Below, piece after piece: positions 45,070 to 63,947 of a stretch of DNA of 64,000 nt; positions within the stretch are counted from its first letter, which is position 1, and every line of letters starts with the position of its first letter. Source of the DNA: Candidatus Omnitrophota bacterium (GTDB lineage: Bacteria > Omnitrophota > Gorgyraeia > Zapsychrales > JANLHA01); the NCBI GenBank assembly GCA_020632555.1, contig JACKFI010000006.1, positions 11,467 to 75,466 on the forward strand, read 5' to 3'. A model generated the notes under the pieces. The model made no database searches, was not told the origin of the DNA, and saw only the letters and a program-made list of their open reading frames with translations. Position numbers and translations under genes: made by a program.

Positions 45070-45221
45070 AAAATCTTTACTCCGTGCAGGGTTAAAACAA
45101 GACATAGGTTAATTTAAGTGCGTGCTAACATTCATTTTTCTCCCCACTTTATAAGAGAGCGTTTAGAGGCAGCGCAAAGGGAATCTTGCACCACCTTCCC
45201 TCGAGGGAGGGGAAAACGTAA

Positions 45222-45295
45222 TGGGCCATGCAGGACTTGAACCTGCCACCCTCTGATTAAGAGTCAGATGCTCTACCGAGATGAGCTAATGGCCC
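45222..45295 (-). tRNA. tRNA-Lys (anticodon CTT)
   Basis: A 74-nt minus-strand cloverleaf folded by hand. Acceptor is GGGCCAT/ATGGCCC, D arm GCTC/GAGC, anticodon arm TCTGA-CTCTTAA-TCAGA, T arm GCAGG-TTCAAGT-CCTGC, discriminator A. CCA is not encoded. Confidence 0.9.
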
Positions 45296-45620
45296 AAAGT
45301 TACATCATTTAACCAAATATTCCTCAGGAAAACTTTGGGTCAATACCGATTTACAAAAAATCTTTTCTCCAGAGTAAAGCGGTATGGCCCTTCAAAAACA
45401 TTATCAAATAAACTTACAAATCAACCTTCAGCGAAATTTTGGGCCAATCCCGTTTTCGGGATGGCCCGACTAAAATTCACCAAATCAACATTTTCAAGAT
45501 AATTTCAAATCAACAAGACCCACAATATAACAGAATTATTTTTTGCTGTAAAGCGCGAAGTCGATAAGAAACATTGAAAACCTTGCACTCCTTTTGGTTC
45601 GAATGTAGAATCACTGGTCT

Positions 45621-48908: not shown

Positions 48909-49892
48909 TTATGGGGCAGCCTGTGTTTGTGTTGTCACAACAGCTTGTCCGCGAGCCTTGCCCGTATTACCACGCATACGCCGCACGCGATCCTGCCGCT
49001 CTTTAAGCGTCAATGGCTTGTAATCTTCTAGATCATAACCATCATCCATAGGATTGACCTTGGTTTCTTGAGAAGAACTTGCCGTTTCACTGCCCGAAGG
49101 CAAACGCGCACGCAATTGAATACGAATTTTTCCAACAGACGAATCGGCGTTAATTGCCGGCTCAGGAGATTTCTTAACTTGAGCCCTTACAATTTCTGAT
49201 GAGCCAGCATGAACATTAGGAATAGGGATATCCGGCCTTTGTCCCACCGGTCCGGCACCAGAACGCATAATAGCTTCCAATCGGCCAGCCAAAGTCTCCT
49301 CTCCCATGCCTCGCAGCGTGGTGATCACATCCAAAGCATTGGCTTGTTCATTATTGCGCGCATAAGCCAGACCCAAACCATAATACATTTTGGGATTAGG
49401 AATTTTTTCAATAACTTCCTTAAAATATTTAATCGCTTCTGCCGGCTGACCTGTTCCAAAAAGACACACCCAAGCTAATGTCACCTTAGCCGCGCCAGCA
49501 TTGGGATCAAGGGCTAGAGCTTTTAAACAAGCAGCTTGCGCCCAATCAGATTTTTGATATTGAAAATACGCTCGACACATATCCGAATAATGTTGCGCAT
49601 TTTGCGGCTCCAAATCTGCCGCTTGCTGAAAAAGCCAAACAATATCATCGATATTACCATTCTGGTCCAAATAAACCTGTCCTAAGGCACTATACGCTGG
49701 CGCAAAATCCGGGTCAGCATCAATCGACTTTTCATAAAAATCAATCGCCTTTAGGATATCTCCCTGCTGCATTCTTTCCTGACCTTGCGCAAATAATTCA
49801 CTGGCCGCAGACTGTGCGCAAGCAAAACGAACAAAAAGAAACATTTGCATTATGACCAATACCATCCAAAATTTTGCGTTTGAACTCATCAT
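48909..49892 (-). CDS. exported TPR-repeat protein
   Basis: Signal peptide (FACAQSAA) and several TPR units (AIDFYEKSIDADPDFAPAY..., AIKYFKEVIEK...). I prefer the start at 49892, overlapping the upstream stop as TAATG. Confidence 0.7.
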   Translation of the reverse strand: MMSSNAKFWMVLVIMQMFLFVRFACAQSAASELFAQGQERMQQGDILKAIDFYEKSIDADPDFAPAYSALGQVYLDQNGNIDDIVWLFQQAADLEPQNAQHYSDMCRAYFQYQKSDWAQAACLKALALDPNAGAAKVTLAWVCLFGTGQPAEAIKYFKEVIEKIPNPKMYYGLGLAYARNNEQANALDVITTLRGMGEETLAGRLEAIMRSGAGPVGQRPDIPIPNVHAGSSEIVRAQVKKSPEPAINADSSVGKIRIQLRARLPSGSETASSSQETKVNPMDDGYDLEDYKPLTLKERQDRVRRMRGNTGKARGQAVVTTQTQAAP

Positions 49893-51310
49893 TACTTTTT
49901 CTTCATCATTCTTTGCCAAACATTTGAATCGGAAACGTCACTATTTTGATACTCCTGGCTATCCATCTCTCTACTTTCAATTTTTTTCTGAATAGTATTA
50001 TTCTTTGGTTTTATCCCCCAGAAATCATTCCACAAAGATTCAATATTCTTAACTTTGAGACGTTGACCACTCTTAACTTCATTAAGTGGCGTTGCCTTTT
50101 TATTTTTAGAACTCACTGTATTCGAAGAATCTGTCTCCAAAGCTTTTTTCCCACCCTGCCCTTTAGCAGAATCCCCACCAGAACCAGAAAAACCACCTGC
50201 CCCCGACTCACCACCACCCTGACCAGCAGATCCATTAGCATTATAATTATCATCACTTTCCTCGCCATTGCCGCCGCCACCATTTTCTCCAGATGCAGAA
50301 TCACCGGCACCACCTTGACCACTGCCGCCATTACTCCCAGCCCCAGAACCGCCGCTACCATTTCCGCCAGATGCAGAATCACCGGCACCACCTTGACCAC
50401 TGCCACCATTACTCCCAGCCCCAGAACCGCCGCCACCATTTCCGCCAGATGCAGAATCACCGGCACCACCTTGACCACTGCCGCTATTACCACCTTTATT
50501 TAAACCACCCTTGCTCTCTGATCCCTGACCATCCCCAGATGAGTCTCCCAAAGACGCCTGGCCACTTGCCGAACCACGAGAACCTTGCCCCGCCTGGCCA
50601 TTAAGACCTTGCTCGGTTTTCAAATTATTTTTATTACTACCTGTGGTCGAACCCAAAGCACCAGCTGCCGGCATTGCTCGACTTGAGCCAGCTACAGATG
50701 TTTTCCCAGAAACATCTGCGGCTAAAGTTACGGCACCCTCTGAAAGCTGAGCATCAATAATCAACTTCGATATCTTCATGCTAACAGTCACTTCATCCGC
50801 ACTGGATTTCTTACCAGTAATATTCATCTTAACAACTTTTAATAAATTATTGGTCGTATCAATCTTATGAATAAATTTAATAATATTTTCGAACTTTCCG
50901 TTGCACTCAACATTGGCATAATATTGCATATAACCTTTTTTGGAAACCGCATCAGCAGGATTCAACTTGCCCAAAGTAACTTCCGCTTCCGTTCCTAAAT
51001 TTTCAATCGTCTTTAAAAACGCAGCAATACTCTCTTCTTCAGTTTTACGTTCATCCGCCTGATAAACGCTATAGATTTCATTTTCTTTAAATATTTTTTC
51101 CTGATATGCCAAAAAACGAACATTACGATTAATGTCGTTTTTGGTTTGTTCAATATCTCTATCCAAACTCTTTAACTTTGAAGTCACCTTCTGCAAGAAC
51201 AAAAAATCAAATGCCGCCAAAAGAATAAAACCCAGCGCGACATAAAATATCTTTCTTTCCTGCTCTGAAAGTTTTGTATAAAAATCCTTTAACATCCTTA
51301 AAATCCTCAA
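49892..51310 (-). CDS. PilO/GspM-like bitopic membrane protein with long Gly/Ser/Asn-rich repetitive C-terminal region
   Basis: The N-terminal 190 aa has a short cytoplasmic segment, a TM helix, a coiled coil and a small alpha/beta domain, as in PilO/GspM. About 200 aa of GSGQGGAGDSASGGNG repeats follow. Confidence 0.5.
   Translation of the reverse strand: MRILRMLKDFYTKLSEQERKIFYVALGFILLAAFDFLFLQKVTSKLKSLDRDIEQTKNDINRNVRFLAYQEKIFKENEIYSVYQADERKTEEESIAAFLKTIENLGTEAEVTLGKLNPADAVSKKGYMQYYANVECNGKFENIIKFIHKIDTTNNLLKVVKMNITGKKSSADEVTVSMKISKLIIDAQLSEGAVTLAADVSGKTSVAGSSRAMPAAGALGSTTGSNKNNLKTEQGLNGQAGQGSRGSASGQASLGDSSGDGQGSESKGGLNKGGNSGSGQGGAGDSASGGNGGGGSGAGSNGGSGQGGAGDSASGGNGSGGSGAGSNGGSGQGGAGDSASGENGGGGNGEESDDNYNANGSAGQGGGESGAGGFSGSGGDSAKGQGGKKALETDSSNTVSSKNKKATPLNEVKSGQRLKVKNIESLWNDFWGIKPKNNTIQKKIESREMDSQEYQNSDVSDSNVWQRMMKKK
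50270..50490 (-). repeat. 78-bp coding tandem repeat, about 2.6-3 copies
   Basis: The unit agatgcagaatcaccggcaccaccttgaccactgcc... restarts at 50291, 50369 and 50447 (exact 78-nt spacing), nearly identical each time. It encodes 26-aa GGNG(S/G)GGSGAGSNGGSGQGGAGDSAS units. Confidence 0.9.
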
Positions 51311-51413: not shown

Positions 51414-53531
51414 CTACCCCCGTTGGAATAGCAGGCGCAACTGCTGAGGATTTTCTGCCGGCAAATGACACATTTGATTCTCACAAACATAAACCAAAAC
51501 TTGATGTTTTTGAACATCCTGACCTTTTGTCATCGAGAACAATTCATCCATTTCTTTTTGAAAATTCAATGTTTTAACTGTCACAACTCTTTGAGCGATC
51601 CATGATCTAAAAACCAGCGCCAACATCTCTCGTCCTTTAATTTGTTCAACATCTCCAACAACACCAATTTCTTTAACCGGTCCAAAATAAAACTGCAAAG
51701 ACATCATCATCTGCGTATACGCACTTGGCGCCGTTAACATCTGAGCATAAAAGTTTTTAAAAAGCTGTTCACTTTTAACTAAATAACCCTGTTCAAATGT
51801 CAAATGGTAAAGCCGCAAAAAATGATGTGCCGCCAATGAATTTCCGGACGGAACCGCGCCATCATAAACCTCTTTGGGTCTAAAGATCAATTGCTCCCCA
51901 TCTTTTGGTGTTAAAAAGAGTCCCCCTGAATTTTCATCCCAAAATAAATCCATCATTTCCTGATTCAATCGAACAGCTTGTTTAAAATACTGCGGATCAA
52001 AAGAATATTCAAAAAGGTCCAAAAGTCCGGTAATAAAAAACACGTAGTCATCCAATCCCGCAAGAATTCCTGCCTCACCATCACGGTACCGATGCAATAA
52101 TCTTCCATCATCTCGTTTTAAATGCACAAGAATAAACCGCGCCGCCTTCTCTGCGGCCTGCAAATATCGCGGTTGGTCTAAAATCCTACCCGCCATAGCC
52201 AAACTCGAAATCATCAAACCATTCCAATCAACAAGAACTTTATCATCCAAATGCGGCAAAGGACGTTTTGCCCGAGCAGCAAAAAGTTTTTCTTTACCAC
52301 CTTGAATAATTCTTTCCACTTCTTCTGCCGGCGCTTGAACATGCGCCGCTGTCTCTGCTAAGGAGTGCTTCACATACAAAATATTTTTCCCAATAAATTC
52401 ACCGTGCGGATCAAGTTGCGCATTCCCATTGGGTTCAATACCAAAATGATAACTCAGAATTTGCAGCTCTTCAGACGTCAACAAACTTTTTAACTCTGTA
52501 ACAGACCATACATAAAACGCGCCTTCCTTCTTTTGATGATCATCAGCCGACTCTAGACTATCTGCATCGACAGCAGAATAAAAACCTCCTTGCTGATCAC
52601 ACATTTCCCGCAAAACATAATCAAGGATATGCTTAGCGGTATCGGCATACAATTCTTTACCCGTAGCAATAAAAGCCTCGAGATAAATCTTGGCCAACAA
52701 CGCCTGATCATAGAGCATTTTCTCAAAATGTGGAACTTGCCATTGGGCATCCGTCGCATAACGATGAAATCCGCCACCCAGCTGATCACACATCCCACCA
52801 TGACTCATTGCGGCCAAAGTTTGCTCGACCATAATCAAAGCATGAGGCTGATTATTATTCGTCCAATAACGCAAAAGAAAACTTAAAGTATGCCCCATCG
52901 GGAACTTAGGTGAATGACCAAAACCGCCATTTTGAATATCAAAATTATTGGCTAATTGTTCATAGGCTTGCGCCAATATCTCAGGTTCCAGAACTTTTGC
53001 AGTAACCTCTTGTTCAGAAAATCGCTGCAAAAAATGGTCTACAATCATTTCTCCCGACTGACGAATTTTATCTTGTTCCTTAATCCATTTGTTATGAACA
53101 GACCACAAAATATCCTTAAACCCCGGAGAACCCCAACGTGGCTCGGGGGGAAAATAAGTTCCACCATAAAAAGGCTGCTGCTGTGGTGTCAAAAAAACTG
53201 ATAATGGCCATCCACCACTACCAGTCGTGGCCGTAACAAAACTCATATAAATGCTATCCAACTCCGGGCGCTCTTCCCGATCAACCTTAATCGCGACAAA
53301 GTGCTCATTGATAAGTTGAGCAACTTTCTCATCTTCAAAACTTTCATGCGCCATCACATGACACCAATGGCACGTGGAATACCCAATTGATAAAAAAACA
53401 GGCTTATTTTCATTTTGAGCTTTAGCAAATGCAGCTTCTCCCCAGGGATACCACTGAACAGGATTATATGCATGTTGAAGAAGATACGGGCTTTTTTCAC
53501 CAATAAGAAGATTTGTTTTTTGCCTTTGCAT
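51414..53531 (-). CDS. DUF255 thioredoxin-domain protein (YyaL/SSP411-like; thioredoxin fold + alpha/alpha-6 barrel)
   Basis: The motifs are [13 protein letters not shown]-type N-terminus, [10 protein letters not shown] and SGGWPL. I prefer the start at MQRQKTN (53531), which avoids overlap with the upstream ORF. Confidence 0.8.
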
Positions 53532-53538
53532 CCGCTGA

Positions 53539-53901
53539 TTATTTCTCTGCTGATTCTTGTTGGGGAGGAATAACAAGATCTGCTTCGGCACTGCCGCCCA
53601 AACTACAGCTAGCTTTAACATGAACAGCATCACCAGGCTTCAAATCCAGAAAAATAGAAATTTTCACTTCGGAAGCCGAACGTTGGAAAGGCAATCGATG
53701 GATCTCTGGTTTTTCATTATTAACAGTGACCGTGATCGTCCGAATATAATGTTCTCTTAACTCTGCCGTTGGATGATGCATACTGATCGCCAAATTCTGT
53801 TCAACAGGATCGTATTGCAACTGTAAATCATTGGGCGGCGTCGCAGGAACAATCGAAACCATCAAGAACAGCCACACCGTAATTAGAAAAATATTTCTCA
53901 T
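53539..53901 (-). CDS. small secreted protein, unknown function
   Basis: Signal peptide followed by about 95 aa of predicted beta-rich sequence. There is a 4-nt overlap with the upstream gene. Confidence 0.45.
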
Positions 53902-54509
53902 TTTTGATCTCCCAGTATATTTGCAACTTTCATGTCAAGTAATGCCTCATCCAAGAGCTTTTGACGATCGTCTAACGAATGAACTTTAACAGAAACATCT
54001 GCCTTGTTTTTTAATACAGAAAAGTTTAGAACTGACAACTTTTCTAAATACTGACGTGTATCCAAATAATTCGGTAAAAGTTTTTCTACTTCCGCCAAAT
54101 CTTTTTGGCAAATCAGGTATTGCTTATGCTCGAAAGCCTCGACAGCTTTTTGATAAAGACGATCCACCCCTTTCTCGAATTCATTGACCAAAAACTCTCT
54201 TTCGCGAACAATCCTAACTTTGCGTTCAATGACCGCTTTGGCCAAATCAGAACGATCTCTCTTTAACTTCAAACGAGTTTGCAAAATCTTTTCCCGAATC
54301 CGTTGCGTGTTAAAATCATGTTTAACCTTATAACTTTCCAACGTATCCTGATCTTGCAAATCGTCAAAATATTGAGCGCTAGCATCCATTTGCTGCCGGA
54401 CAACAGCAAAAGCAGGGCAAATAAAACCTAAGAACGTAATAAATGAAACGATCAAAACTTTAAGGCAATAATTAAACATAGACATTTCGCAACTTAAGTT
54501 CAATGACAA
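53898..54509 (-). CDS. signal-peptide / membrane-anchored coiled-coil protein, unknown function
   Basis: The hydrophobic N-terminus ends in PAFAVV. The remainder is charged and helical. Confidence 0.45.
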   Translation of the reverse strand: MSLNLSCEMSMFNYCLKVLIVSFITFLGFICPAFAVVRQQMDASAQYFDDLQDQDTLESYKVKHDFNTQRIREKILQTRLKLKRDRSDLAKAVIERKVRIVREREFLVNEFEKGVDRLYQKAVEAFEHKQYLICQKDLAEVEKLLPNYLDTRQYLEKLSVLNFSVLKNKADVSVKVHSLDDRQKLLDEALLDMKVANILGDQK

Positions 54510-54523
54510 ACATGCGTGCTATT

Positions 54524-55846
54524 TTAGCGTAAACAAGCATTATCCACACACTTTTTATTGATATGAAACAAATAACGATTCTTAGCAATTCCCGCATAAA
54601 ATAAGGGTCCTAAAACATTAGCACCAGGGAAATACGCGAGAAAAACTACAGGATATAACATCGGCAAGAGCAAAATCAGCCGACGAAAAGCAAAAAATCC
54701 TCCGTACAAATCCCCAGTTGGCTCAACCAAATACAATTGACTATGCACCTTCTCTTTGCTCAGCTGAGAATGCAAAAGCGACACATCCGGACAAGTCTGG
54801 TAATCAACAAAAGTTAATCGGCCAAACAAATCCATCACTTTAAGCATTTCAATACTAGCTGTACAAAACTGACAATGCCCATCATAAATAACTTGTATCT
54901 TCGCACTATGAGCAAAAATCCTTCGCCGCTGTTCAATCCAGGCCACAATCTTTTCTGGAGGAATAAAAAGCAATAACTGAGCTGGAAACAAAAAGAAAAA
55001 AATCGCTGGCACATCCAAAGTCAAAATCAAAGTGACATGAAAAAGAAAACCTAAACTAATTCCTGTCAAGCGCGTTGCCGGATTAAATAGAAGAAATGGC
55101 ATTAGCAACTCAATCATAACAATCACAACACCCAAAACATAACACAAAGCCGGATGCGCGCTGAAAAAATCGCGCAACAAGAAATACTTCGTTACCCCCT
55201 CGCTGGGCATAATCATCAAATAATAAATCGGATTTCCGCTGAGCCAATTGCCCTGCGCTGTGACTTTATACAACCCGGTATAAAAATAAATAAAAGCCAA
55301 TTGCATTTGCAAAAGCCGCTGAATAAAAAATGGCCGTTGCCGATAAAAAGCGCTGGGGTCTCTTCTTAAAACACAATCCAGCGAAAAATAATCCCCCAAA
55401 TACGGCACAAAACAAATCAAAACCAAAGTTACCAAAAGAATGTCCCACGCTAATGTTCCAATTGCAAAAGCATTCAAAGCATAAAAATAATAACAACCCA
55501 AGGTCATGGCAATCGCACTAAATTGTGTTTTATATCCAATTAAAAAAGAAAACCAAACCAAACAAAATATTGCGGCCATAACGATCACCAAGGCATCAGG
55601 ACTTTGTTGGATAAAGTCTAAAATTCCTGCAGTAAAAAAATTTGTGTTGAGAACCTTAAATGCTCCCGAGAGATAATTTTCTTTCAAAGGAACAAAAGTT
55701 GGCAGCACATGAAATCCAACCGCCAGAGCAACAGCAATGCGAAAGAATGCCAAGGAAATGGATGGCCGCTCTTCTAAAAATAATTTCTTCCAAAGATTCT
55801 TCATATTATTCATCACATTGGTAAAACGGCGCCTGGATTTGCTCAA
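54524..55846 (-). CDS. HTTM-domain membrane protein (vitamin-K-dependent carboxylase / SdpB family) fused to a DCC/DUF393 thiol-disulfide oxidoreductase domain
   Basis: The HTTM-like start is SISLAFFRIAVALAVGFHV, with about 9 TM helices. The C-terminal IQVIYDGHCQFCTASIEMLKVMD is the DUF393/DCC CxxC signature. The true start may be an internal Met (55813 or 55804). Confidence 0.65.
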   Translation of the reverse strand: MSKSRRRFTNVMNNMKNLWKKLFLEERPSISLAFFRIAVALAVGFHVLPTFVPLKENYLSGAFKVLNTNFFTAGILDFIQQSPDALVIVMAAIFCLVWFSFLIGYKTQFSAIAMTLGCYYFYALNAFAIGTLAWDILLVTLVLICFVPYLGDYFSLDCVLRRDPSAFYRQRPFFIQRLLQMQLAFIYFYTGLYKVTAQGNWLSGNPIYYLMIMPSEGVTKYFLLRDFFSAHPALCYVLGVVIVMIELLMPFLLFNPATRLTGISLGFLFHVTLILTLDVPAIFFFLFPAQLLLFIPPEKIVAWIEQRRRIFAHSAKIQVIYDGHCQFCTASIEMLKVMDLFGRLTFVDYQTCPDVSLLHSQLSKEKVHSQLYLVEPTGDLYGGFFAFRRLILLLPMLYPVVFLAYFPGANVLGPLFYAGIAKNRYLFHINKKCVDNACLR

Positions 55847-56264
55847 AACGTGAGCTTGTTAATGAAGGATATTCCACCGCCGCGACTATAAACTTTTCGT
55901 ATTCCGGGAATTGATTTTTTAGAACGCGACAAAAATCTTGTCGCACGCTGGGCATGAGAACAGTACTCAATACATTGCGATGCACCATATCAAACCCAAT
56001 AAAACGAGTCCGGATAATTTCATGCGGATCAATCAGGTCAGTGTTTCCATTACGAACACCATAAACTTTGGCATAAACAGCACGGTCATCAACCTGATAA
56101 AACATGATCCAGCCAGCGGGGGGATAAAGAAACTTCAACTTCGGCAAAGCCCGGTGAAAATACGGCTGCAAATAAAAGTGGCGCAGCGATTCATAATGAA
56201 ATACACTTGCCCACACAATAACAAATACACTGATAATAATATTGCGATAACTTTTTAAGACCAT
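55806..56264 (-). CDS. single-TM protein, possible SdpA-family partner of the HTTM protein
   Basis: 152 aa with an N-terminal TM helix, immediately upstream of and overlapping the HTTM gene. The SdpA assignment rests only on size and synteny. Confidence 0.35.
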   Translation of the reverse strand: MVLKSYRNIIISVFVIVWASVFHYESLRHFYLQPYFHRALPKLKFLYPPAGWIMFYQVDDRAVYAKVYGVRNGNTDLIDPHEIIRTRFIGFDMVHRNVLSTVLMPSVRQDFCRVLKNQFPEYEKFIVAAVEYPSLTSSRFEQIQAPFYQCDE

Positions 56265-56284: not shown

Positions 56285-57757
56285 CTAAAGAAGCTCTCTC
56301 TCACCAAAAACATCAGCTGTAAATATTTCAATATGAGTTGCTGGGTCTTGCCAGCAATTTGCCGGTAAATTAGCTTTCTGTGAACACAATTCCGAAAGAA
56401 ACTTCTCCTTGCTCCACTGGGTCTCAGTCGCGACTTGCGGCAAAAAGACGCCATGCGCTCGTCCTTTACTGATGATCACGCCATGCACACCCATTTGAAT
56501 TTCGCCAATATCTTTAATCCGCCATGGACGAGAAAGAACAGAAATTTCCAAATCAATGCTCTTAAGCTCCTCTGCCCTTACAGCCGAAAACCGCGGATCT
56601 TGCGTCGCCGCGGCAATAGCCATGTCACGCACTGTTTTCTGCAAAGGTTCATCGCTAACAATATGTCCAATACACCCCCGCAGCTGCCCATTCTTATGGA
56701 TTGTGACAAAAGCCCCTTGGGGATACGACAGCCGAGCATCATCAATCTGAATGTTTTTAACTTTATGCTCAGTCACATAATTTTCAATTGTCTGACGTGC
56801 CAAAGTCAATAACTGCTTTTTTTGTTCTAAATTTAAAACTGACACAGCATTTCCTTTTGTTTCTTGCCCTGAAAGATGCGACTTATAAAAAATAACAGAA
56901 CTATAGCCAACAACTCGGCTATTATCGCCAGTGATATCGCCGGAGTGAGCATACTTCAAAACTTTGGCCTGCAATCCCCGTGATTGCGCCAACAAAAGAG
57001 CTGTGGTCACTGGAACAAAACCGCACATTTCCATTTTACCCATACGGCATTGTTGATAAAGAACTGCGGCGTCGAGTTTTTCAATACTGGCCAAAGTTAT
57101 TGCATCCATTGCGCGGGCTGCAGCACCCTGATGATAATGCGACATATCGCTGCTCACGACCACCAGAACATCAGAACGTTTGCCAATCAACTGGTCCAAA
57201 GCCACTGCTAATTTCTGACAGCTGGCATAACTCATCTGCCCTAAAATCACCGGAACAATTTTAAAATCCATAAAAGTTTTCTGTAAAAAAGGAATTTCAA
57301 CTTCCAGAGAATGTTCTTTTTGATAGGCTTGGGCATCAAAAGCAAACTGTTGATCAACAGCGCTGAGTTTCTGTGCAAATTCTTCATCAACAGCCACGGT
57401 CCCTAAAGGAGTTTGAAATCCGCCCTGACTCCACACTGAAGCCCCGGCAAAACCATAAAAATGACTGGGTGCCAAAATAACAATTGTTTTAAATTGCTTT
57501 TGACTAGCTGCTTTAAAGCTATACCCCGCAACAGGCCCAGAATAAACATAACCGGCATGCGGCGCAATCACAATCTGAACATCATCTTCAACCGCAACAG
57601 TATCCGCGTCTTTAAGATAAGCCTCTAGATTCTGTGATAGTTTTTTAGGATCAGCGTCATAAAACTGGCCGCTGACATTGGGAAGTTTAATATTTTGAGG
57701 AAAAGCAGGTCGAGCCATAACAACCAATAAAATTAGAATAAAGGTTAGACGTCGCAC
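56285..57757 (-). CDS. Memo-like (AmmeMemoRadiSam protein B) :: AMMECR1 (protein A) fusion with N-terminal signal peptide
   Basis: MRRLTFILILLVVMARPAFPQ precedes the Memo start SGQFYDADPKKL and IAPHAGYVYSG. The C-terminal third has the AMMECR1 block GAFVTIHKNGQLRGCIG. Confidence 0.75.
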   Translation of the reverse strand: MRRLTFILILLVVMARPAFPQNIKLPNVSGQFYDADPKKLSQNLEAYLKDADTVAVEDDVQIVIAPHAGYVYSGPVAGYSFKAASQKQFKTIVILAPSHFYGFAGASVWSQGGFQTPLGTVAVDEEFAQKLSAVDQQFAFDAQAYQKEHSLEVEIPFLQKTFMDFKIVPVILGQMSYASCQKLAVALDQLIGKRSDVLVVVSSDMSHYHQGAAARAMDAITLASIEKLDAAVLYQQCRMGKMEMCGFVPVTTALLLAQSRGLQAKVLKYAHSGDITGDNSRVVGYSSVIFYKSHLSGQETKGNAVSVLNLEQKKQLLTLARQTIENYVTEHKVKNIQIDDARLSYPQGAFVTIHKNGQLRGCIGHIVSDEPLQKTVRDMAIAAATQDPRFSAVRAEELKSIDLEISVLSRPWRIKDIGEIQMGVHGVIISKGRAHGVFLPQVATETQWSKEKFLSELCSQKANLPANCWQDPATHIEIFTADVFGERELL

Positions 57758-57761
57758 AAAA

Positions 57762-58259
57762 CTACTTTTCTGATTTTAGAAAATATTTATCCAAACTCCA
57801 AAACGAAGTATATTCTACCACCCCACGTAACAAAACGATTGTTAACAACAATAAGCATATGTCAAGAATAAGCGTATGATGAATATCCGATGAAAAAAGA
57901 CCACCAAAACACCCACAATATTCCAGAGGAAGTTTACGAATCAAGGCTTGCGAAATAATCCCAATAAAAGTCATAATCATCAAAACAAATGCCCGCAATA
58001 CCCACTTTAACCATAGTCCCAATACCAAAAACAAACCCAAGAAAAGCTCAATCCATGGAAAAACTCGCGCAACAATATTTTCTAACATCGCCGGAAGAAT
58101 TTCATATCCCTGCACCACATAAAGAAAATTCTGATACGGTTCCATGATCTTGGTAATACCGATCACAACAAAAAGGCTACCAATCAAAACTCTGAGAATA
58201 AAGAATTTAGGGCCTAAATTCTTAATCATCTTGATCTTTGCATTTGTCTCTGAATTCAT
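57762..58259 (-). CDS. MauE/DoxX-family membrane protein
   Basis: 4 TM helices and the CGCFGG motif characteristic of MauE-like proteins. Confidence 0.6.
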   Translation of the reverse strand: MNSETNAKIKMIKNLGPKFFILRVLIGSLFVVIGITKIMEPYQNFLYVVQGYEILPAMLENIVARVFPWIELFLGLFLVLGLWLKWVLRAFVLMIMTFIGIISQALIRKLPLEYCGCFGGLFSSDIHHTLILDICLLLLTIVLLRGVVEYTSFWSLDKYFLKSEK

Positions 58260-58939
58260 GGTTTGACCTCGCTTGGGATAGACACTTCAACGGGCGTCTT
58301 TATCCCTAATAACTCATCTAACTTCATTTGTAATGATTTTGTGCCGACCACCATTTCATGATTGATAAAATAAGAGGGTGTCGAAGAAACCATGCGCATT
58401 TTTCCTTCTTCCTGATCAGTCGCAATCGCTTGCTTAACACTATCATCTTTTAAGCACGCATTTAACTGATCAAGATTCACACCTGCTTGCTTACCAATGG
58501 CCTCAAAAGACGGGACCGGATCAATCATCGCCGCCCATTCATTTTGCCGCGCAATCAAAAGATCCATAAACGGCCAAAACTTGTCCTGACGAGCAGCGCA
58601 TTCACCCCAACGCGCACTGGATTCTCCATGTTTATGCATAGCTAACGGAAAATACCGCAATTCAATATAAAGCTTATCAGGATTGTTTTTTAAATATTCA
58701 TGCAACAATTGATACCCTTTGGCGCACGCGGGACATTGGAAATCGATAAATTCAATAATTTTGATTTTAGCTTGCGGATTACCTTGCGCGCGTTGTGGAA
58801 GTTTTATTGCAGCAGGATTTTGAGCCACAACGACCTGTTGTTGCTTTTGCATAAATTTTAAGCCGGAAAATATTGCAATTCCACCAACAATCAAAACAAT
58901 TGTTAAACCCTTTTTGGAAACCTTTGCCATAACACACAC
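58256..58939 (-). CDS. membrane-anchored DsbA-family thiol:disulfide oxidoreductase
   Basis: N-terminal TM anchor, thioredoxin fold with FIDFQCPACA active site, and C-terminal SSTPSYFIN (cis-Pro region). Confidence 0.8.
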   Translation of the reverse strand: MCVMAKVSKKGLTIVLIVGGIAIFSGLKFMQKQQQVVVAQNPAAIKLPQRAQGNPQAKIKIIEFIDFQCPACAKGYQLLHEYLKNNPDKLYIELRYFPLAMHKHGESSARWGECAARQDKFWPFMDLLIARQNEWAAMIDPVPSFEAIGKQAGVNLDQLNACLKDDSVKQAIATDQEEGKMRMVSSTPSYFINHEMVVGTKSLQMKLDELLGIKTPVEVSIPSEVKP

Positions 58940-59010: not shown

Positions 59011-59045
59011 AAAAAAAACCCCGTAAGAATTTTACGGGGTTTTTA
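59011..59045 (-). terminator. rho-independent (bidirectional-looking) terminator after pckA
   Basis: The stem CCCCGTAA-gaatt-TTACGGGG is flanked by an A-run (59011-59018) and a T-run (59040-59044). On the minus strand it follows the pckA stop by about 20 nt. Confidence 0.85.
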
Positions 59046-60806: not shown

Positions 60807-62289
60807 GGGAATGATACCATTGATCCTTACCCCCTGATCCCAGCGGAGGCGATGAAAATTTTATGTATTACGGATGAAGCATTTAAAAATATTAAAGAGG
60901 CTTACCAGGCCTTTTGCCAGGGCCTTAGAGGTCGATTACCCAAAAGATCGTTGAACCCTAGCCCCATTAGGGAGAGTTTATTAGTACAAAAACAACCCGT
61001 CCTTAAGAAAAAACATTTTTCGGATTATGAACCCAGCAAAGCGATTTACCTCAACGAATGTGATTATCGCCGCTGGTGCCGCGTTAGCGAATGGTTTAAC
61101 CAATATGGATCTGATTCTGAATATTAAAAATCTATGAATTAAATAAAAATGGACACATAATAGCTCCTAAAAATCCTTGGCGGGATGAAAGGAGTGAAAA
61201 AACTTATGTGTCCGTACAAATATTATCATGTTATGAGACAAAGCAAAGATAAAAAAATCTTACGTTACCAGATGGTTCTAAAGGCTCTAGCGCTGGGCGT
61301 CAAGCCCACAGCCAGACTTTTTAATACCAGCGCGCCTGTGGTCCGTAAATGGTCCAAGCGTTTTAAGACTGACGGTTATCTTGGATTAAACGACCGCTCC
61401 CACAAACCCCACTATTCTCCCGGTGCCACACCCGAGCCTATAAAAAAGTTTATCATCGATCTAAAGGGCAAATATAAGCGTTTGGGCGCAGAACACATTC
61501 GAAACTTAGAAGGTTTAACTTATGCCCCTAAAACCATGCGCAAAATCTGGAAAGAGGCGGGTATCCCGTCGAGAAAGAGACCCAAGAAACATGTCACAAA
61601 GAACAACCTGCGCGCCGTAAAAATGCTCTTTAAATTATTCGAGCAATCCATGGAGGACACCAAAGACCTCATGGATATCCCCGAATACTATCTCCAAGCT
61701 AAAATGCTTAATCTGCCAAAAGTGCAATATACTTTTCGGGAAGTCTCCTGCGGAATTCTTTTTACCGGCTTTGCCAATAATCTTTCGCTAACACATTCAC
61801 AATTATTTGCCGTCTATATCAACCACTTCCTCAAGAAATTTAGCGCTCTGCCGAAATCGGCTATGCGACAAACTGATAATGGCAGCGAATTCATCGGCGC
61901 TTGGAATGCTAAAAAATCTTCTGCCTACACCAAGACCATCGAATCTGTGCCCGGCCAATGGCACAACACAATTTTCCCCGGTGCACATCGCATGCAATCT
62001 GACGTCGAGACGATTCACAATCTCATGGAGATGGAATTCTTTGAGATTGAACAATTCAAGAATAGGGCGGACTTCTTTAACAAAGCCACGTCCTATCAAT
62101 TATTCTTCAACCTGCATCGCACAAACTCTTACAAAGAACACAAAACACCTTGGCAATTAGCCCAAGAAAAGAAACCAGATTTGGACAAACGCTTACTGAT
62201 GGTTCCTCCAGTCGATCTCGACAAACTACTCAACTGGAAATTATCACTTACTCATTCGAAGGGGGGTAACGATCACTTGACCGTTCCCT
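60807..62289 (+). mobile_element. IS481-like insertion sequence (about 1.48 kb) with imperfect ~28-bp terminal inverted repeats
   Basis: The left end is GGGAATGATACCATTGATCCTTACCCCC. The reverse complement of the right end is GGGAACGGTCAAGTGATCGTTACCCCCC; the termini GGGAA and TGATCnTTACCCCC are shared. It contains a DDE/rve transposase ORF and is flanked by a 16-bp direct repeat. Confidence 0.7.
60852..61127 (+). CDS. hypothetical small ORF inside the IS, upstream of the transposase
   Basis: 91-aa ORF with no recognisable motif. Coding status is uncertain. Confidence 0.3.
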   Translation: MKILCITDEAFKNIKEAYQAFCQGLRGRLPKRSLNPSPIRESLLVQKQPVLKKKHFSDYEPSKAIYLNECDYRRWCRVSEWFNQYGSDSEY

Positions 62290-62291
62290 AA
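61185..62291 (+). CDS. IS481-family DDE (rve) transposase
   Basis: N-terminal HTH (ARLFNTSAPVVRKWSKRF...GLNDRSHKPHYSP) and an integrase core with QTDNGSEFIG. The stop codon straddles the right IS end. Confidence 0.8.
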   Translation: MKGVKKLMCPYKYYHVMRQSKDKKILRYQMVLKALALGVKPTARLFNTSAPVVRKWSKRFKTDGYLGLNDRSHKPHYSPGATPEPIKKFIIDLKGKYKRLGAEHIRNLEGLTYAPKTMRKIWKEAGIPSRKRPKKHVTKNNLRAVKMLFKLFEQSMEDTKDLMDIPEYYLQAKMLNLPKVQYTFREVSCGILFTGFANNLSLTHSQLFAVYINHFLKKFSALPKSAMRQTDNGSEFIGAWNAKKSSAYTKTIESVPGQWHNTIFPGAHRMQSDVETIHNLMEMEFFEIEQFKNRADFFNKATSYQLFFNLHRTNSYKEHKTPWQLAQEKKPDLDKRLLMVPPVDLDKLLNWKLSLTHSKGGNDHLTVP

Positions 62292-62364: not shown

Positions 62365-62748
62365 TTACTGCAGATGTTTAATTTGTTTTTCAATACAAGC
62401 AATCAATTCTTCTATGGTGCCTGGTTTTGCCAAAAAAGCATGCCCGCCAATATAGCCTTCCTGAGCATCAACCTCTTCTTTTGTAATATTTGCCGTAATA
62501 AAAATCACAGGGACATCTTTCAATAAATCATTATTCTTAAATTGATAAACAACATCGGGGCCTTCCAAATCTGGCATAATGATATCTAAAAGAATCACGT
62601 CTGGAATAAACTCAATAGCCGTCTGTAAAGCATCCAAAGGATTATTTTGGATTTTCACTTCGTAGTCCCCGGCAGCCTCAAGATTTAATTTTACCATTTT
62701 TGTAAATCCGCGCTCATCATCGATGACGAGAACTTTCCTCTTTTTCAT
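62365..62748 (-). CDS. single-domain response regulator (CheY-like receiver)
   Basis: KVLVIDDE, DVILLDIIMPDLEG and a conserved Lys context (AKPG). No output domain. Confidence 0.85.
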   Translation of the reverse strand: MKKRKVLVIDDERGFTKMVKLNLEAAGDYEVKIQNNPLDALQTAIEFIPDVILLDIIMPDLEGPDVVYQFKNNDLLKDVPVIFITANITKEEVDAQEGYIGGHAFLAKPGTIEELIACIEKQIKHLQ

Positions 62749-63947
62749 AAACTGCCTTTCTTATTCGCCTTAAAAATGAGTCTTGCGATGGCTCCACCCT
62801 CTTGTTTATTTTGCAAAGAAATAACGCCACCATGGCTATTCATAATTGTACGAGCTATGGAAAGCCCCAGTCCAATACCTCCAGATGCTCGTCGGGTTGT
62901 AAAAAATGGGTCGAAAATTTTAATCAAATATTCTGCTTTTATTCCTGGGCCTGTATCATCAAAATCAACAATAACAACATCCTCACCTTTTATTAAAGAT
63001 TTGCTTCTTTTATCCACCCAACCAATGTCCTGTTCGGCAAATTTTTTAGCATATGTTCGAATAACCAAACAACCACCATCGCTCATCGCATAAAGCGCAT
63101 TTACAATAAGATCAACAACAACCTGCTTGATTCGATTGCAATCAATTTTTATTAACGGCAAATCACTTTGTAAATCTTTTTTAAGCTCAACATTGATGCG
63201 CTCACATTGCGGCCGAATCAAATTAACCGCCTGATCAATTAAAATATTTATATTTTCCGGCTCTTTCTTCAAGTTGGTCAAACTAGCAAAATCTAAAAGT
63301 CCTTTAATAATCCCGTTGGCTGATTTAGCTGCTTCCTTAATTGATTCAAGCGTCAAAACAACTTTTTCATCTGTGGATTTAAGGGCGGTGTTCAAATATT
63401 CAACGCCGTATAAAATTGTAGCCAATGGATTCTTTACTTCATGTGCCACACCGCTGGCTAAACCGCCAATAACATTCATTTTCTCAGCTTGAATCAGCTG
63501 AGTTTGTGTTTGCTGCAATTTATTATAAGCGCCTTTAAGCTCCTCTTCTGCCTTCTTACGTTCCACAGCATAATACAAAGATTTAACCAGAACATAGGAT
63601 TTGTACATCCCTTTAATCAAATAATCTTGAGCTCCCTTGGTGATTGCTTTTAAACCCAAGTCATCCTGATAGGATCCAGTATTAACAACGACCGGCATGT
63701 GGGGAAATTTTCGATGAAAACGTTTCAATGTTTCCAAACCAGTACAATCATCCACATTCAAATCCAATAAGACAACATCAAAATTTTGTTTGGCTAATAA
63801 AATAAAAGCTTGCTCAAGAGAACCTGCAAATTGCGACTCAAAACGACCATACGGAGATGATTGCAGCATTTTATCAATAACCTTACAATCAACGGCACTA
63901 TTTTCCACCAGCAAAACTCGAAGTTTTTTATCAAATTGTGATTTCAT
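62745..63947 (-). CDS. hybrid response-regulator / histidine kinase (REC-HisKA-HATPase)
   Basis: N-terminal receiver (VLLVENS...DVVLLDLNV), H-box GVAHEVKNPL, N/G boxes (NALYAM, DTGPGI, GGIGLGLS). It overlaps the downstream RR gene by 4 nt. Confidence 0.85.
   Translation of the reverse strand: MKSQFDKKLRVLLVENSAVDCKVIDKMLQSSPYGRFESQFAGSLEQAFILLAKQNFDVVLLDLNVDDCTGLETLKRFHRKFPHMPVVVNTGSYQDDLGLKAITKGAQDYLIKGMYKSYVLVKSLYYAVERKKAEEELKGAYNKLQQTQTQLIQAEKMNVIGGLASGVAHEVKNPLATILYGVEYLNTALKSTDEKVVLTLESIKEAAKSANGIIKGLLDFASLTNLKKEPENINILIDQAVNLIRPQCERINVELKKDLQSDLPLIKIDCNRIKQVVVDLIVNALYAMSDGGCLVIRTYAKKFAEQDIGWVDKRSKSLIKGEDVVIVDFDDTGPGIKAEYLIKIFDPFFTTRRASGGIGLGLSIARTIMNSHGGVISLQNKQEGGAIARLIFKANKKGSL

What the first reader, a model, noticed from the sequence alone, without database searches (positions are those of the whole stretch)
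56285..57757. Memo::AMMECR1 fusion carrying an N-terminal export signal and lacking a radical-SAM partner
In the AmmeMemoRadiSam system, Memo-like, AMMECR1-like and radical-SAM activase proteins are normally three separate cytoplasmic proteins encoded together. Here the Memo half (SGQFYDADP..., IAPHAGYVYSG) and the AMMECR1 half (GAFVTIHKNGQLRGCIG) are fused in one 490-aa protein.

The protein begins MRRLTFILILLVVMARPAFPQ, a positively charged n-region with a hydrophobic core placed before the normal Memo start. The twin Arg is loosely Tat-like. No CxxxCxxC radical-SAM gene is visible anywhere in the 64 kb. The neighbours are periplasmic thiol oxidoreductases. An exported, SAM-independent version would imply a different role for this still poorly understood module.
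Basis: partly seen in the sequence, partly recalled or inferred. Interest (0 to 1): 0.62.

Follow-up and report, generated by a model that had tools for sequence, protein, structure and literature searches.

The report
Exported Memo–AMMECR1 fusion enzyme
An uncultured Omnitrophota bacterium encodes a fused Memo–AMMECR1 enzyme with a real export signal shared by most bacterial relatives, so this poorly understood enzyme pair probably works outside the cytoplasm in many bacteria, but the idea that it has lost its radical-SAM partner is not supported.

Summary
A 490-aa ORF on the minus strand (56285-57757) is a Memo::AMMECR1 fusion. It has an N-terminal signal-like peptide and thiol-redox neighbours, and the 64 kb contains no radical-SAM gene.

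The signal is real and found across the family. It is present in 89/120 close homologs, and both "short" calls I tested are start-codon miscalls. It is also present in at least 106/150 diverse cluster representatives and in 62/70 complete fusions from metagenome loci. It is Sec-type, not Tat, because the RR is not conserved.

The inference "exported, therefore SAM-independent" fails. In other lineages, signal-bearing fusions sit directly beside bona fide TIGR04337 radical-SAM genes. About 16 of the 21 with complete N-termini carry Tat-like signals themselves. A fused MFS/spermidine-synthase membrane protein and DsbD_2 often accompany them.

Omnitrophota encode this rSAM widely, as an unlinked rSAM–DsbD_2–MFS/SpdSyn trio. 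The system therefore looks split in this phylum, not reduced. I could not show that the fusion and the rSAM occur in the same genome.

In the window's clade the fusion lies in a conserved operon: DsbA–MauE–fusion–152aa–HTTM/DCC–X–X–DUF255. I rate it a new variant of a known system. The unexpected by-product is an apparently extracytoplasmic radical-SAM system.

The parts
56285..57757 (-). Memo::AMMECR1 fusion gene (490 aa, GTG start 4 nt after the MauE stop codon). It is 100% identical to NCBI MCB9757472.1, 'AmmeMemoRadiSam system protein B', from a Candidatus Omnitrophica MAG.
57698..57757 (-). Signal peptide, residues 1-20: n-region MRR, h-region L4-A15, c-region RPAFP. Sec-type. The family-consensus cleavage site (AFA|Q in relatives) has Pro at -1 here, so cleavage may occur at VMA|RP or not at all (signal anchor).
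56894..57682 (-). Memo domain, residues 26-288. The metal-site residues H67, H99, D204, H207 and C245 are intact.
56807..56893 (-). Flexible inter-domain linker (residues about 289-317; pLDDT below 50 for residues 295-305).
56306..56806 (-). AMMECR1 domain, residues 318-484, with the invariant LRGCIG motif (C362).
57762..58259 (-). MauE/DoxX membrane protein (4 predicted TM) with a C-G-C-F motif. Functional analogue of DsbB. It lies directly upstream and looks translationally coupled to the fusion.
58256..58939 (-). DsbA-like thioredoxin (Thioredoxin_4/DSBA; CPAC motif; N-terminal anchor). First gene of the operon.
59014..59044 (-). Intrinsic-terminator-like hairpin (13-bp stem plus T-run) after PEPCK. 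It marks the 5' boundary of the operon.
55806..56264 (-). Conserved 152-aa protein with one N-terminal TM and no family match. It always follows the fusion in the Omnitrophota-type operon.
54524..55846 (-). HTTM (vitamin-K-carboxylase-like membrane domain) fused to a DCC1-like thiol-disulfide oxidoreductase. Gene callers give 426 aa, which puts the start near 55804.
53898..54509 (-). Conserved 203-aa protein with an N-terminal hydrophobic segment. Function unknown.
53539..53901 (-). Conserved 120-aa signal-bearing protein. It has a sub-threshold Desulfoferrodoxin-like hit (E=0.0028).
51414..53633 (-). DUF255/Thioredox_DsbH thioredoxin-domain protein (CHWCH motif). The true start is probably M35, so it has no signal and is probably cytoplasmic. 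Last gene of the conserved block.

Best explanation
The gene encodes the fused B+A (Memo+AMMECR1) component of an AmmeMemoRadiSam-type system, targeted by a Sec-type N-terminal signal to the periplasmic side of the inner membrane. It may be released there, or it may stay anchored, because the usual cleavage site has Pro at -1.

Export is the normal state of bacterial Memo–AMMECR1 fusions. It is not a peculiarity of this gene.

The Memo half keeps the His/His/Asp/His/Cys metal site of MEMO1, and the AMMECR1 half keeps its invariant Cys. The protein is therefore most likely an active metal-dependent redox enzyme acting on an envelope-located substrate. By inference that substrate is a membrane isoprenoid/quinone-type lipid or an exported protein or peptide.

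The radical-SAM partner is probably not lost. In Omnitrophota it is encoded elsewhere, as a conserved rSAM–DsbD_2–fused-MFS/spermidine-synthase operon whose rSAM also carries an export-type signal.

In the window's clade the fusion gene sits inside an eight-gene envelope redox operon: DsbA, MauE (the DsbB analogue), fusion, 152-aa membrane protein, HTTM–DCC, two small exported proteins, DUF255. It is presumably co-expressed with the oxidative-folding and quinone-linked machinery.

Shown: domain identity, conserved signal, conserved operon, local absence of an rSAM, presence of the rSAM in the phylum, and adjacency of rSAM and fusion in other lineages.
Inferred: actual export, a partnership in the same genome, and the substrate.
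For: Domains and fold. AF2 pLDDT is 90.5. The halves match MEMO1 (TM 0.82) and archaeal AMMECR1 structures (TM 0.73-0.77).

Active site: H67/H99/D204/H207/C245 align with the MEMO1 ligands. All are invariant across 107 diverse fusions except C245, which is at least 90% conserved; C362 is also invariant.

Signal:
- 89/120 close homologs have K/R plus an h-region (median 13 residues) plus AxA-like c-regions such as AFA|Q, SFS|D and SWG|D.
- Two of the 31 short calls were tested, and both have an in-frame upstream GTG that restores the signal, laid out as in the window.
- At least 106/150 50%-cluster representatives have a signal, many with lipoboxes.
- 62/70 complete fusions in metagenome loci have one.

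Operon: conserved in the window, L001, L002, L004, L008, L010 and L090, which are 52-73% identical to the window protein. A terminator lies upstream of DsbA. MauE has been shown to replace DsbB (bioRxiv 10.64898/2026.03.05.709764).

rSAM link:
- 25/82 loci have an adjacent rSAM. Three tested members are TIGR04337 at 369-400 bits against a cut-off of 220.
- 24 of 62 signal-bearing fusions have one, with about 16 Tat-like, 2 Sec-like and 3 with no signal.
- All four components lie together in L091.
- Omnitrophota rSAMs are numerous. They sit in an invariant rSAM–DsbD_2–MFS/SpdSyn trio in 4/4 loci examined.
Against: - Export is predicted only from sequence rules and conservation. SignalP and TatP were not available, and my hydropathy heuristic is permissive (18/44 window ORFs flagged).
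- The window protein has Pro at -1 of the consensus cleavage site.
- I could not show that any genome carrying the window-type operon also carries the rSAM trio. Neither contig lengths nor NCBI accession blocks overlap.
- There is no rSAM, DsbD_2, MFS/SpdSyn or DUF362 relative in the 64 kb, nor within +-10 kb in 8 related loci.
- A Sec-exported Fe-S/SAM enzyme is biochemically problematic. There is no known periplasmic Fe-S assembly or SAM pool, which weakens the idea that the partner works in the same compartment.
- The operon association could be lineage-restricted synteny with no functional link. It is absent in L003.
Confidence: 0.6

Rival explanations
1. In this Omnitrophota clade the exported fusion has become independent of radical-SAM chemistry. 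It works instead with the co-operonic thiol/quinone redox proteins (DsbA, MauE, HTTM–DCC, DUF255), for example as a periplasmic metal-dependent oxidase in envelope protein or quinone maturation.
For: - No rSAM in the 64 kb or within +-10 kb of 8 related loci.
- Tight, conserved gene order with the redox genes across homologs 52-73% identical.
- No same-genome rSAM could be demonstrated.
- The Omnitrophota rSAM trio never has a Memo or AMMECR1 gene nearby.
Against: - The phylum widely encodes TIGR04337.
- The nearest outgroup fusions (L011 and L014, 44% identical) are adjacent to an rSAM.
- Catalytic residues are unchanged relative to rSAM-linked fusions.
- DsbA/MauE is probably the general oxidative-folding pair, not a dedicated partner.
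- The operon is absent from another Omnitrophota genome that has the fusion (L003).
Confidence: 0.22
2. The N-terminal hydrophobic stretch is not an export signal. Either translation starts at the downstream ATG (Met14), giving a cytoplasmic protein, or the segment tethers the enzyme to the cytoplasmic face of the membrane, where SAM and Fe-S assembly are available.
For: - Met14 is an ATG, whereas the long ORF starts with GTG.
- Gene callers chose the short form in about 31/120 homologs.
- Pro at -1 disfavours signal peptidase cleavage.
- The biochemistry of the rSAM partner argues for the cytoplasm.
Against: - The hydrophobic peptide is conserved in character, though not in sequence, across homologs 38-86% identical. 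These include many that start at ATG and have no internal Met (e.g. P0118).
- AxA-like c-regions and lipoboxes only make sense on the periplasmic side.
- The N-terminus is positively charged, so the positive-inside rule puts the N-terminus in and the C-terminus out.
- The h-region, at about 12-13 residues, is too short for a stable TM span.
- The partner rSAMs carry canonical [ST]RRxFLK Tat motifs.
- The associated DsbD_2 is an inside-to-outside electron conduit.
Confidence: 0.08
3. A maturase model, like the anaerobic sulfatase-maturating enzymes. The radical-SAM enzyme acts in the cytoplasm, on the unfolded fusion protein itself or on a precursor substrate, before Sec export. Only the Memo–AMMECR1 part then works in the periplasm.
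For: - In L031, L034 and L072 the fusion carries a Sec or lipoprotein signal while the adjacent rSAM has no N-terminal extension.
- TIGR04337 is closest to the protein-activating PFL-activase family.
- There is precedent for cytoplasmic rSAM maturation of exported proteins (anSME, from my own knowledge; the HXS system, PMC13128918, listed).
Against: - Most adjacent rSAMs (about 18 of the 21 with complete N-termini), and the Omnitrophota rSAMs, carry export-type signals themselves.
- No modified residue is known.
- The conserved Cys residues are equally conserved in cytoplasmic archaeal homologs.
Confidence: 0.1

Closest known systems
AmmeMemoRadiSam system (TIGR04335 protein A / TIGR04336 protein B / TIGR04337 radical SAM enzyme)
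   Same: Both halves score far above the curated cut-offs for proteins B and A. In other lineages, homologous fusions sit next to TIGR04337.
   Different: Here A and B are fused and carry a Sec-type signal. No TIGR04337 gene lies in 64 kb. In Omnitrophota the rSAM is at a separate locus with DsbD_2 and a fused MFS/SpdSyn protein. The fusion lies in a DsbA/MauE/HTTM-DCC operon. The system's function has not been determined experimentally.
Human MEMO1 (PDB 3BCZ, 7KQ8, 7L5C), a copper/iron-binding redox protein
   Same: Same fold (TM 0.82). All five metal-site residues are conserved.
   Different: About 24% identity. The window protein is below the cut-off of the NCBIfam 'MEMO1 family' equivalog (224 vs 295 bits). 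It is bacterial, exported and fused to AMMECR1. MEMO1 is cytosolic and stand-alone.
Archaeal AMMECR1 homologs PH0010 (1VAJ), MM0484 (1ZQ7), ST0229 (1WSC)
   Same: Same fold (TM 0.63-0.77) and 34-37% identity. The LRGCIG motif and the C-terminal Cys-containing segment are conserved.
   Different: The archaeal proteins are stand-alone, cytoplasmic and of unknown function. Here the domain is the C-terminal half of an exported fusion.
DsbA/DsbB-type oxidative folding via MauE (bioRxiv 10.64898/2026.03.05.709764)
   Same: The two genes upstream are a DsbA-like thioredoxin and a MauE with the CXC-Phe active-site motif.
   Different: That pathway explains the neighbours, not the fusion. No link between MauE and Memo/AMMECR1 has been described.
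Anaerobic sulfatase-maturating enzymes (a cytoplasmic rSAM acting on Sec-exported sulfatases; from my own knowledge)
   Same: A radical-SAM enzyme is genetically coupled to an exported protein. Some loci (L031, L034, L072) pair a signal-less rSAM with a signal-bearing fusion.
   Different: Different rSAM family (PFL-activase-like, no SPASM domain). Most partner rSAMs here carry signals themselves. No target residue is known.

Membership tests
AmmeMemoRadiSam system protein B (TIGR04336) | HMM score above the curated cut-off over the full model | tested here: met
   286.4 bits against a cut-off of 26; residues 26-290 cover model positions 3-270 of 270
AmmeMemoRadiSam system protein A (TIGR04335) | HMM score above the curated cut-off over the full model | tested here: met
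   179.8 bits against a cut-off of 99; residues 315-484 cover model positions 2-175 of 175
AmmeMemoRadiSam system (three-gene system) | Co-located TIGR04337 radical-SAM gene | tested here: not met
   No CxxxCxxC ORF and no tblastn hit in the 64 kb. None within +-10 kb in 8 related Omnitrophota-type loci.
AmmeMemoRadiSam system (three-gene system) | TIGR04337 gene present elsewhere in the same genome | tested here: inconclusive
   The phylum encodes it widely. No overlap of contig or accession block with fusion-bearing MAGs was found. Whole genomes could not be searched.
MEMO1 family protein (NCBIfam NF001987 equivalog) | Score at or above the equivalog cut-off | tested here: not met
   224.3 bits against a cut-off of 295
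Memo/MEMO1 metal-binding enzymes | His/His/Asp/His/Cys metal site | tested here: met
   H67, H99, D204, H207 and C245 align with the MEMO1 ligands (human numbering from memory). Across 107 fusions all are invariant except C245, which is at least 90% conserved.
Sec (SPase I) signal peptide | Positively charged n-region and a hydrophobic h-region of 7-15 residues at the extreme N-terminus | tested here: met
   MRR followed by L4-A15. The family median h-run is 13 (n=89).
Sec (SPase I) signal peptide | Small residues at -3/-1 of a c-region cleavage site | tested here: inconclusive
   Relatives have AFA|Q, VFS|Q and SWG|D. The window has AFP|Q, with Pro at -1. The only rule-compliant site is VMA|RP. 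No SignalP was available.
Tat signal peptide | Conserved [ST]-R-R-x-F-L-K motif with a moderately hydrophobic h-region | tested here: not met
   The window has M-R-R-L-T-F-I. The RR is replaced by RQ, KR or KK in homologs. The h-region is strongly hydrophobic (KD 3.7).
Bacterial lipoprotein | Lipobox ending in Cys at the end of the h-region | tested here: not met
   There is no Cys in residues 1-30 of the window protein. Many distant fusions do have lipoboxes.

The most novel reading that the evidence does not exclude
In many bacteria the whole AmmeMemoRadiSam system, including its radical-SAM enzyme, operates outside the cytoplasm.
- The rSAM is exported, by Tat in some lineages and with Sec-like signals in Omnitrophota and in lineages whose closest named relatives are Margulisbacteria.
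- DsbD_2, and in some loci Tat-type DUF362 and a membrane polyferredoxin, would supply reducing power across the membrane.
- The fused MFS/spermidine-synthase membrane protein would deliver or bind the adenosyl cofactor.
- The exported Memo–AMMECR1 fusion would complete the chemistry on an envelope lipid or protein.

The window's operon would then be one half of such a split periplasmic system. This would be the first radical-SAM pathway outside the cytoplasm, and it would tie the function of Memo/AMMECR1 to the cell envelope.
Probability: 0.35. Interest if true: 0.85.

Novelty: new variant of a known kind. Interest (0 to 1): 0.6.

Why it matters
Memo and AMMECR1 are conserved from archaea to humans. 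MEMO1 is implicated in cancer cell motility and metal homeostasis, and AMMECR1 in the AMME contiguous-gene syndrome. Neither has an established biochemical function.

If the bacterial fused form, and apparently its radical-SAM partner, is routinely targeted to the envelope, the substrate search narrows to membrane lipids, quinones or exported proteins. It also yields simple tests: export reporters and periplasmic proteomics.

A Tat- or Sec-targeted radical-SAM enzyme would challenge the assumption that SAM-radical chemistry is confined to the cytoplasm.

For annotation, about a quarter of the close homologs (31/120) are called with truncated starts that hide the signal; the two tested are start-codon miscalls.

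Tried and rejected
1. Tat targeting of the fusion: rejected, because the RR is not conserved.

2. A downstream true start at Met14: rejected on conservation of the signal, and on upstream GTG starts in L001 and L090.

3. A scan of genome contigs with the window protein returned only 4 loci. It was little help for taxonomy or for checking the rSAM.

4. Matching 'longest contig' values between the fusion and rSAM hit lists gave one coincidence (50,140 bp). It turned out to be two different contigs.

5. Matching NCBI protein accession blocks for 10 fusion and 20 rSAM clusters found no shared MAG, so same-genome co-occurrence remains open.

6. Literature: Burroughs et al. 2019 (JBC) is the key comparative paper on Memo–AMMECR1–rSAM contexts. 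It is not held in the library, so I cannot exclude that it already noted the signals. Searches for exported radical-SAM enzymes, exported AMMECR1, and fused MFS/spermidine synthase found nothing relevant.

8. My hydropathy heuristic flags 18/44 window ORFs. It is permissive and does not replace SignalP.

9. Crude TM counting suggests that the SpdSyn domain of the MFS/SpdSyn partner is periplasmic. I do not rely on this.

10. Cluster c42, found next to L031 and L034, proved to be ribonucleotide reductase and unrelated.
Full report
OBSERVATION

The ORF lies on the minus strand at 56285-57757 (490 aa, GTG start). Pfam finds Memo at residues 26-288 (E=5e-68) and AMMECR1 at 318-484 (E=3e-55). NCBIfam places the halves in TIGR04336 (protein B, 286 bits against a cut-off of 26) and TIGR04335 (protein A, 180 bits against 99).

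An AlphaFold2 model built on 83 homologs is confident (pLDDT 90.5). It shows an N-terminal helix (residues 2-14), a disordered stretch (15-20), a Memo fold, a disordered linker (295-305) and an AMMECR1 fold. The halves superpose on human MEMO1 (TM 0.82) and on archaeal AMMECR1 structures (TM 0.63-0.77).

The MEMO1 metal ligands align with H67, H99, D204, H207 and C245 (human numbering from memory). Across 107 diverse fusions all are invariant except C245, which is at least 90% conserved, and C362 of the LRGCIG motif is also invariant. The protein is 100% identical to NCBI MCB9757472.1 from a Candidatus Omnitrophica MAG.

IS THE N-TERMINUS A REAL EXPORT SIGNAL?

The GTG start lies 4 nt after the stop codon of the upstream MauE gene. 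An ATG at codon 14 would give a cytoplasmic protein, so conservation has to decide between the two starts.

- Of the 120 closest homologs (53-100% identity), 89 carry K/R, then a hydrophobic run (median 13 residues), then an AxA-like c-region (AFA|Q, SFS|D, SWG|D), ending about 3 residues before the invariant IKxPNVSGQFY.
- The other 31 begin inside the c-region. I tested two of them. P0018 (L001) and P0008 (L090) each have an in-frame GTG just after the MauE stop codon that restores the signal: (M)RYLFFILAFVMTMTPLGFA|DE and (M)RRIIFLVILLAMTARPAFA|QY.
- Among 150 representatives of 50%-identity clusters (38-55% identical to the window protein), at least 106 have such extensions, many with lipoboxes.
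- Among complete fusions in 80 metagenome loci, 62 of 70 have one.

The sequence of the signal diverges while its physico-chemical pattern persists, as expected for signal peptides. The twin Arg is not conserved (MRQ, MKR, MKK in homologs) and the h-region is very hydrophobic, so the signal is Sec-type, not Tat.

There is one local oddity. The window protein and its 85%-identical relatives P0003 and P0004 have Pro at -1 of the consensus site (AFP|Q or VFP|Q). Cleavage may therefore shift to VMA|RP or fail, which would leave an N-terminal anchor. Either way the catalytic body faces the periplasm.

Two caveats apply. No dedicated predictor was available. My heuristic is permissive: it flags 18 of 44 ORFs in this envelope-rich window.

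IS THE RADICAL-SAM PARTNER MISSING?

Locally, yes. No reading frame of at least 100 aa in the 64 kb has a CxxxCxxC motif. tblastn with TIGR04337 members, DsbD_2, the MFS/SpdSyn protein and DUF362 finds nothing. Eight related loci have no rSAM within +-10 kb.

At family level the inference "exported, hence SAM-independent" fails.

- Clustering the neighbours of 82 fusion loci shows that the commonest neighbour is a radical-SAM gene (25 loci). Second is a polytopic protein of about 790 aa with a Spermine_synth domain (23 loci). It matches NCBIfam NF037959, 'fused MFS/spermidine synthase'.
- Three of the adjacent rSAMs were scanned against NCBIfam. They score 369-400 bits on TIGR04337 against a cut-off of 220, and the model match starts only at residues 46-74.
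- The N-terminal extensions hold canonical twin-arginine motifs: DRRTFLK, DRRAFLK, SRRDFLIK, SRREFLFK, TRRQFLQ, SRRRFLK and SKREFLR. In L011 and L014 they are Sec-like signals instead.
- Of 62 signal-bearing fusions, 24 have an adjacent rSAM. Of the 21 with complete N-termini, about 16 are Tat-like, 2 are Sec-like and 3 have no signal (L031, L034, L072). Of 12 signal-less Memo or fusion genes, only 1 has an adjacent rSAM.

Export of the fusion and partnership with the rSAM therefore go together.

OMNITROPHOTA

A search with the L014 rSAM, and another with an Omnitrophota rSAM, returned many proteins that NCBI names 'AmmeMemoRadiSam system radical SAM enzyme [Candidatus Omnitrophota]'. Of the 120 hits in the first search, 112 carry K/R plus a hydrophobic N-terminus with AxA-like ends.

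In all four Omnitrophota loci I examined (L088, L094, L095, L096), the rSAM heads a tight rSAM–DsbD_2–MFS/SpdSyn trio. The surroundings are otherwise unrelated, and no Memo or AMMECR1 gene lies within 10 kb. Two of these rSAMs start at unambiguous ATGs and read MKK, then an h-region, then VFA|KE or SRA|EE.

In a contig whose closest named relatives are Margulisbacteria (L091), all four components lie together: rSAM, fusion, MFS/SpdSyn and DsbD_2. The simplest reading is that in Omnitrophota the system is split into two loci.

I could not prove this for any single genome. Neither the contig lengths nor the NCBI accession blocks of 10 fusion and 20 rSAM clusters overlap.

THE LOCAL OPERON

A strong terminator-like hairpin (59044-59014) follows PEPCK. 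After it come eight closely spaced or overlapping genes on the minus strand:

1. DsbA-like thioredoxin
2. MauE/DoxX
3. the fusion
4. a 152-aa single-TM protein
5. HTTM+DCC1
6. a 203-aa protein
7. a 120-aa exported protein
8. DUF255/Thioredox_DsbH

The core of the block (DsbA–MauE upstream of the fusion, 152-aa protein and HTTM–DCC downstream) recurs in L001, L002, L004, L008, L010 and L090, which are 52-73% identical to the window protein; the downstream members vary (DUF255 in five of the six, not detected in L010), and L010 has a 1063-aa ORF between MauE and the fusion. It is absent from L003 (Ca. Aceula meridiana).

A 2026 preprint shows that MauE, with a CXC-Phe active site, functionally replaces DsbB. 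The window's MauE has C-G-C-F. The two upstream genes are therefore probably the general oxidative-folding pair. That argues for co-expression with envelope biogenesis and redox functions, not for a dedicated partnership.

MECHANISM (INFERRED)

I propose a periplasm-facing, metal-dependent Memo active site coupled to the AMMECR1 Cys domain, acting on an envelope substrate.

Three configurations exist in nature:
- All components cytoplasmic, as in the split, signal-less Memo + AMMECR1 pair of L036 and in L073.
- Fusion exported but rSAM cytoplasmic, as in L031, L034 and L072.
- Both carrying signals, which is the majority.

The second configuration implies that the rSAM and the fusion need not meet in one compartment. 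That favours sequential action on something that crosses or sits in the membrane, or maturation before export.

Several things point loosely to isoprenoid or quinone-type lipids:
- The abstract of Burroughs et al. 2019, as I recall it, links Memo contexts to isoprenoid modification.
- The archaeal stand-alone Memo in L006 sits beside an amino-acid-kinase-family gene (isopentenyl phosphate kinase-like by eye), an FMN-dependent dehydrogenase-like gene (IDI-2-like by eye) and a polyprenyl synthetase.
- The local neighbours MauE and HTTM use quinones.

This is a lead, not a result.

WHAT REMAINS STRANGE

Radical-SAM enzymes need Fe-S clusters, SAM and a low-potential reductant, and all three are normally cytoplasmic. 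Tat signals could carry a folded, cluster-loaded enzyme across the membrane. The co-located DsbD_2, the Tat-type DUF362 and a Fer4_5 polyferredoxin (L021) look like a trans-membrane electron supply. The MFS/SpdSyn protein could handle the adenosyl cofactor.

The Sec-type signals on the Omnitrophota rSAMs are hard to reconcile with Fe-S biogenesis. I found no literature on any of this. The one paper likely to have touched on it is not held in the library.

VERDICT

The fusion itself is ordinary and already annotated. The Omnitrophota arrangement is a new variant of a known system. The family-wide extracytoplasmic targeting, extending to the radical-SAM enzyme, is the surprising lead.

Noticed in passing
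L021, L023, L025, L026, L028, L030, L035, L037, L038, L045, L049, L054, L058, L061, L063, L081 (the rSAM ORF adjacent to the fusion in each): Radical-SAM enzymes next to the fusions (TIGR04337 in the three tested, including the L037 and L058 ORFs) begin with canonical Tat motifs (DRRTFLK, SRRDFLIK, SRREFLFK, TRRQFLQ, SKREFLR). This implies export of a folded radical-SAM enzyme, which I have not seen described.
   Followed up: partly
L088 10001-14099; L094 10001-14212; L095 10001-14084; L096 10001-14054: In Omnitrophota the rSAM carries a Sec-like signal (MKK, h-region, VFA|KE). It always heads a tight trio with DsbD_2 (PF13386) and a fused MFS/spermidine synthase of about 760 aa (NF037959). 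The trio is not linked to any Memo or AMMECR1 gene.
   Followed up: partly
L091 10001-15461: One contig, whose closest named relatives are Margulisbacteria, holds all four components together: signal-bearing rSAM, Memo–AMMECR1 fusion, MFS/SpdSyn (opposite strand) and DsbD_2.
   Followed up: partly
window 57698-57757 (-): The window protein and its 85%-identical relatives P0003 and P0004 have Pro at -1 of the signal-peptidase site (AFP|Q or VFP|Q) that is otherwise conserved as AFA|Q or VFS|Q. This subclade may retain the signal as a membrane anchor.
   Followed up: partly
window 57762-58939 (-): The DsbA-like and MauE genes overlap by 4 nt. MauE carries the C-G-C-F motif recently shown to be the active site of a DsbB-replacing oxidase. 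This pair is probably the main disulfide-forming system of the organism.
   Followed up: partly
window 53539-56264 (-): Three conserved proteins with no family assignment accompany HTTM–DCC in the operon: a 152-aa single-TM protein, a 203-aa protein and a 120-aa exported protein. The 120-aa protein has a sub-threshold Desulfoferrodoxin-like hit (E=0.0028).
   Followed up: partly
window 59014-59044 (-): A strong terminator-like hairpin (13-bp stem plus T-run) lies between PEPCK and the DsbA-like gene. It defines the start of the operon.
   Followed up: no
L016, L021, L023, L028, L030, L035, L037, L038 (DUF362); L021 5204-6958 (polyferredoxin): In the Tat-rSAM loci, DUF362 proteins with a Tat-like NRRDFLK motif and a 584-aa Fer4_5/Fer4_7 polyferredoxin recur next to the system. 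They could be a periplasmic or trans-membrane electron supply.
   Followed up: partly
L006 9998-14594: An archaeal (Desulfurococcales) stand-alone, signal-less Memo gene is followed by an amino-acid-kinase-family gene (isopentenyl phosphate kinase-like by eye), an FMN-dependent dehydrogenase-like gene (IDI-2-like by eye) and a polyprenyl synthetase. This is an isoprenoid context.
   Followed up: partly
L010 6713-9904: In one relative with the Omnitrophota-type operon, a 1063-aa ORF is inserted between MauE and the fusion. The MauE–fusion junction is therefore not inviolable.
   Followed up: no
window 49892-51310 (-): A 472-aa ORF with long Gly/Ser/Asn/Ala-rich tandem repeats (GGAGDSASGGNGGGGSGAGSNGGSGQ...) follows the conserved block. 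Its nature is unknown.
   Followed up: no
window 61185-62291 (+): An IS481-like transposase (HTH_32, HTH_28, LZ_Tnp_IS481) lies just upstream of PEPCK, next to a response regulator and histidine kinase pair (62365-63947).
   Followed up: no
window 45221-45296 (-): A single tRNA-Lys (CTT) is the only tRNA or Rfam hit in the 64 kb.
   Followed up: no
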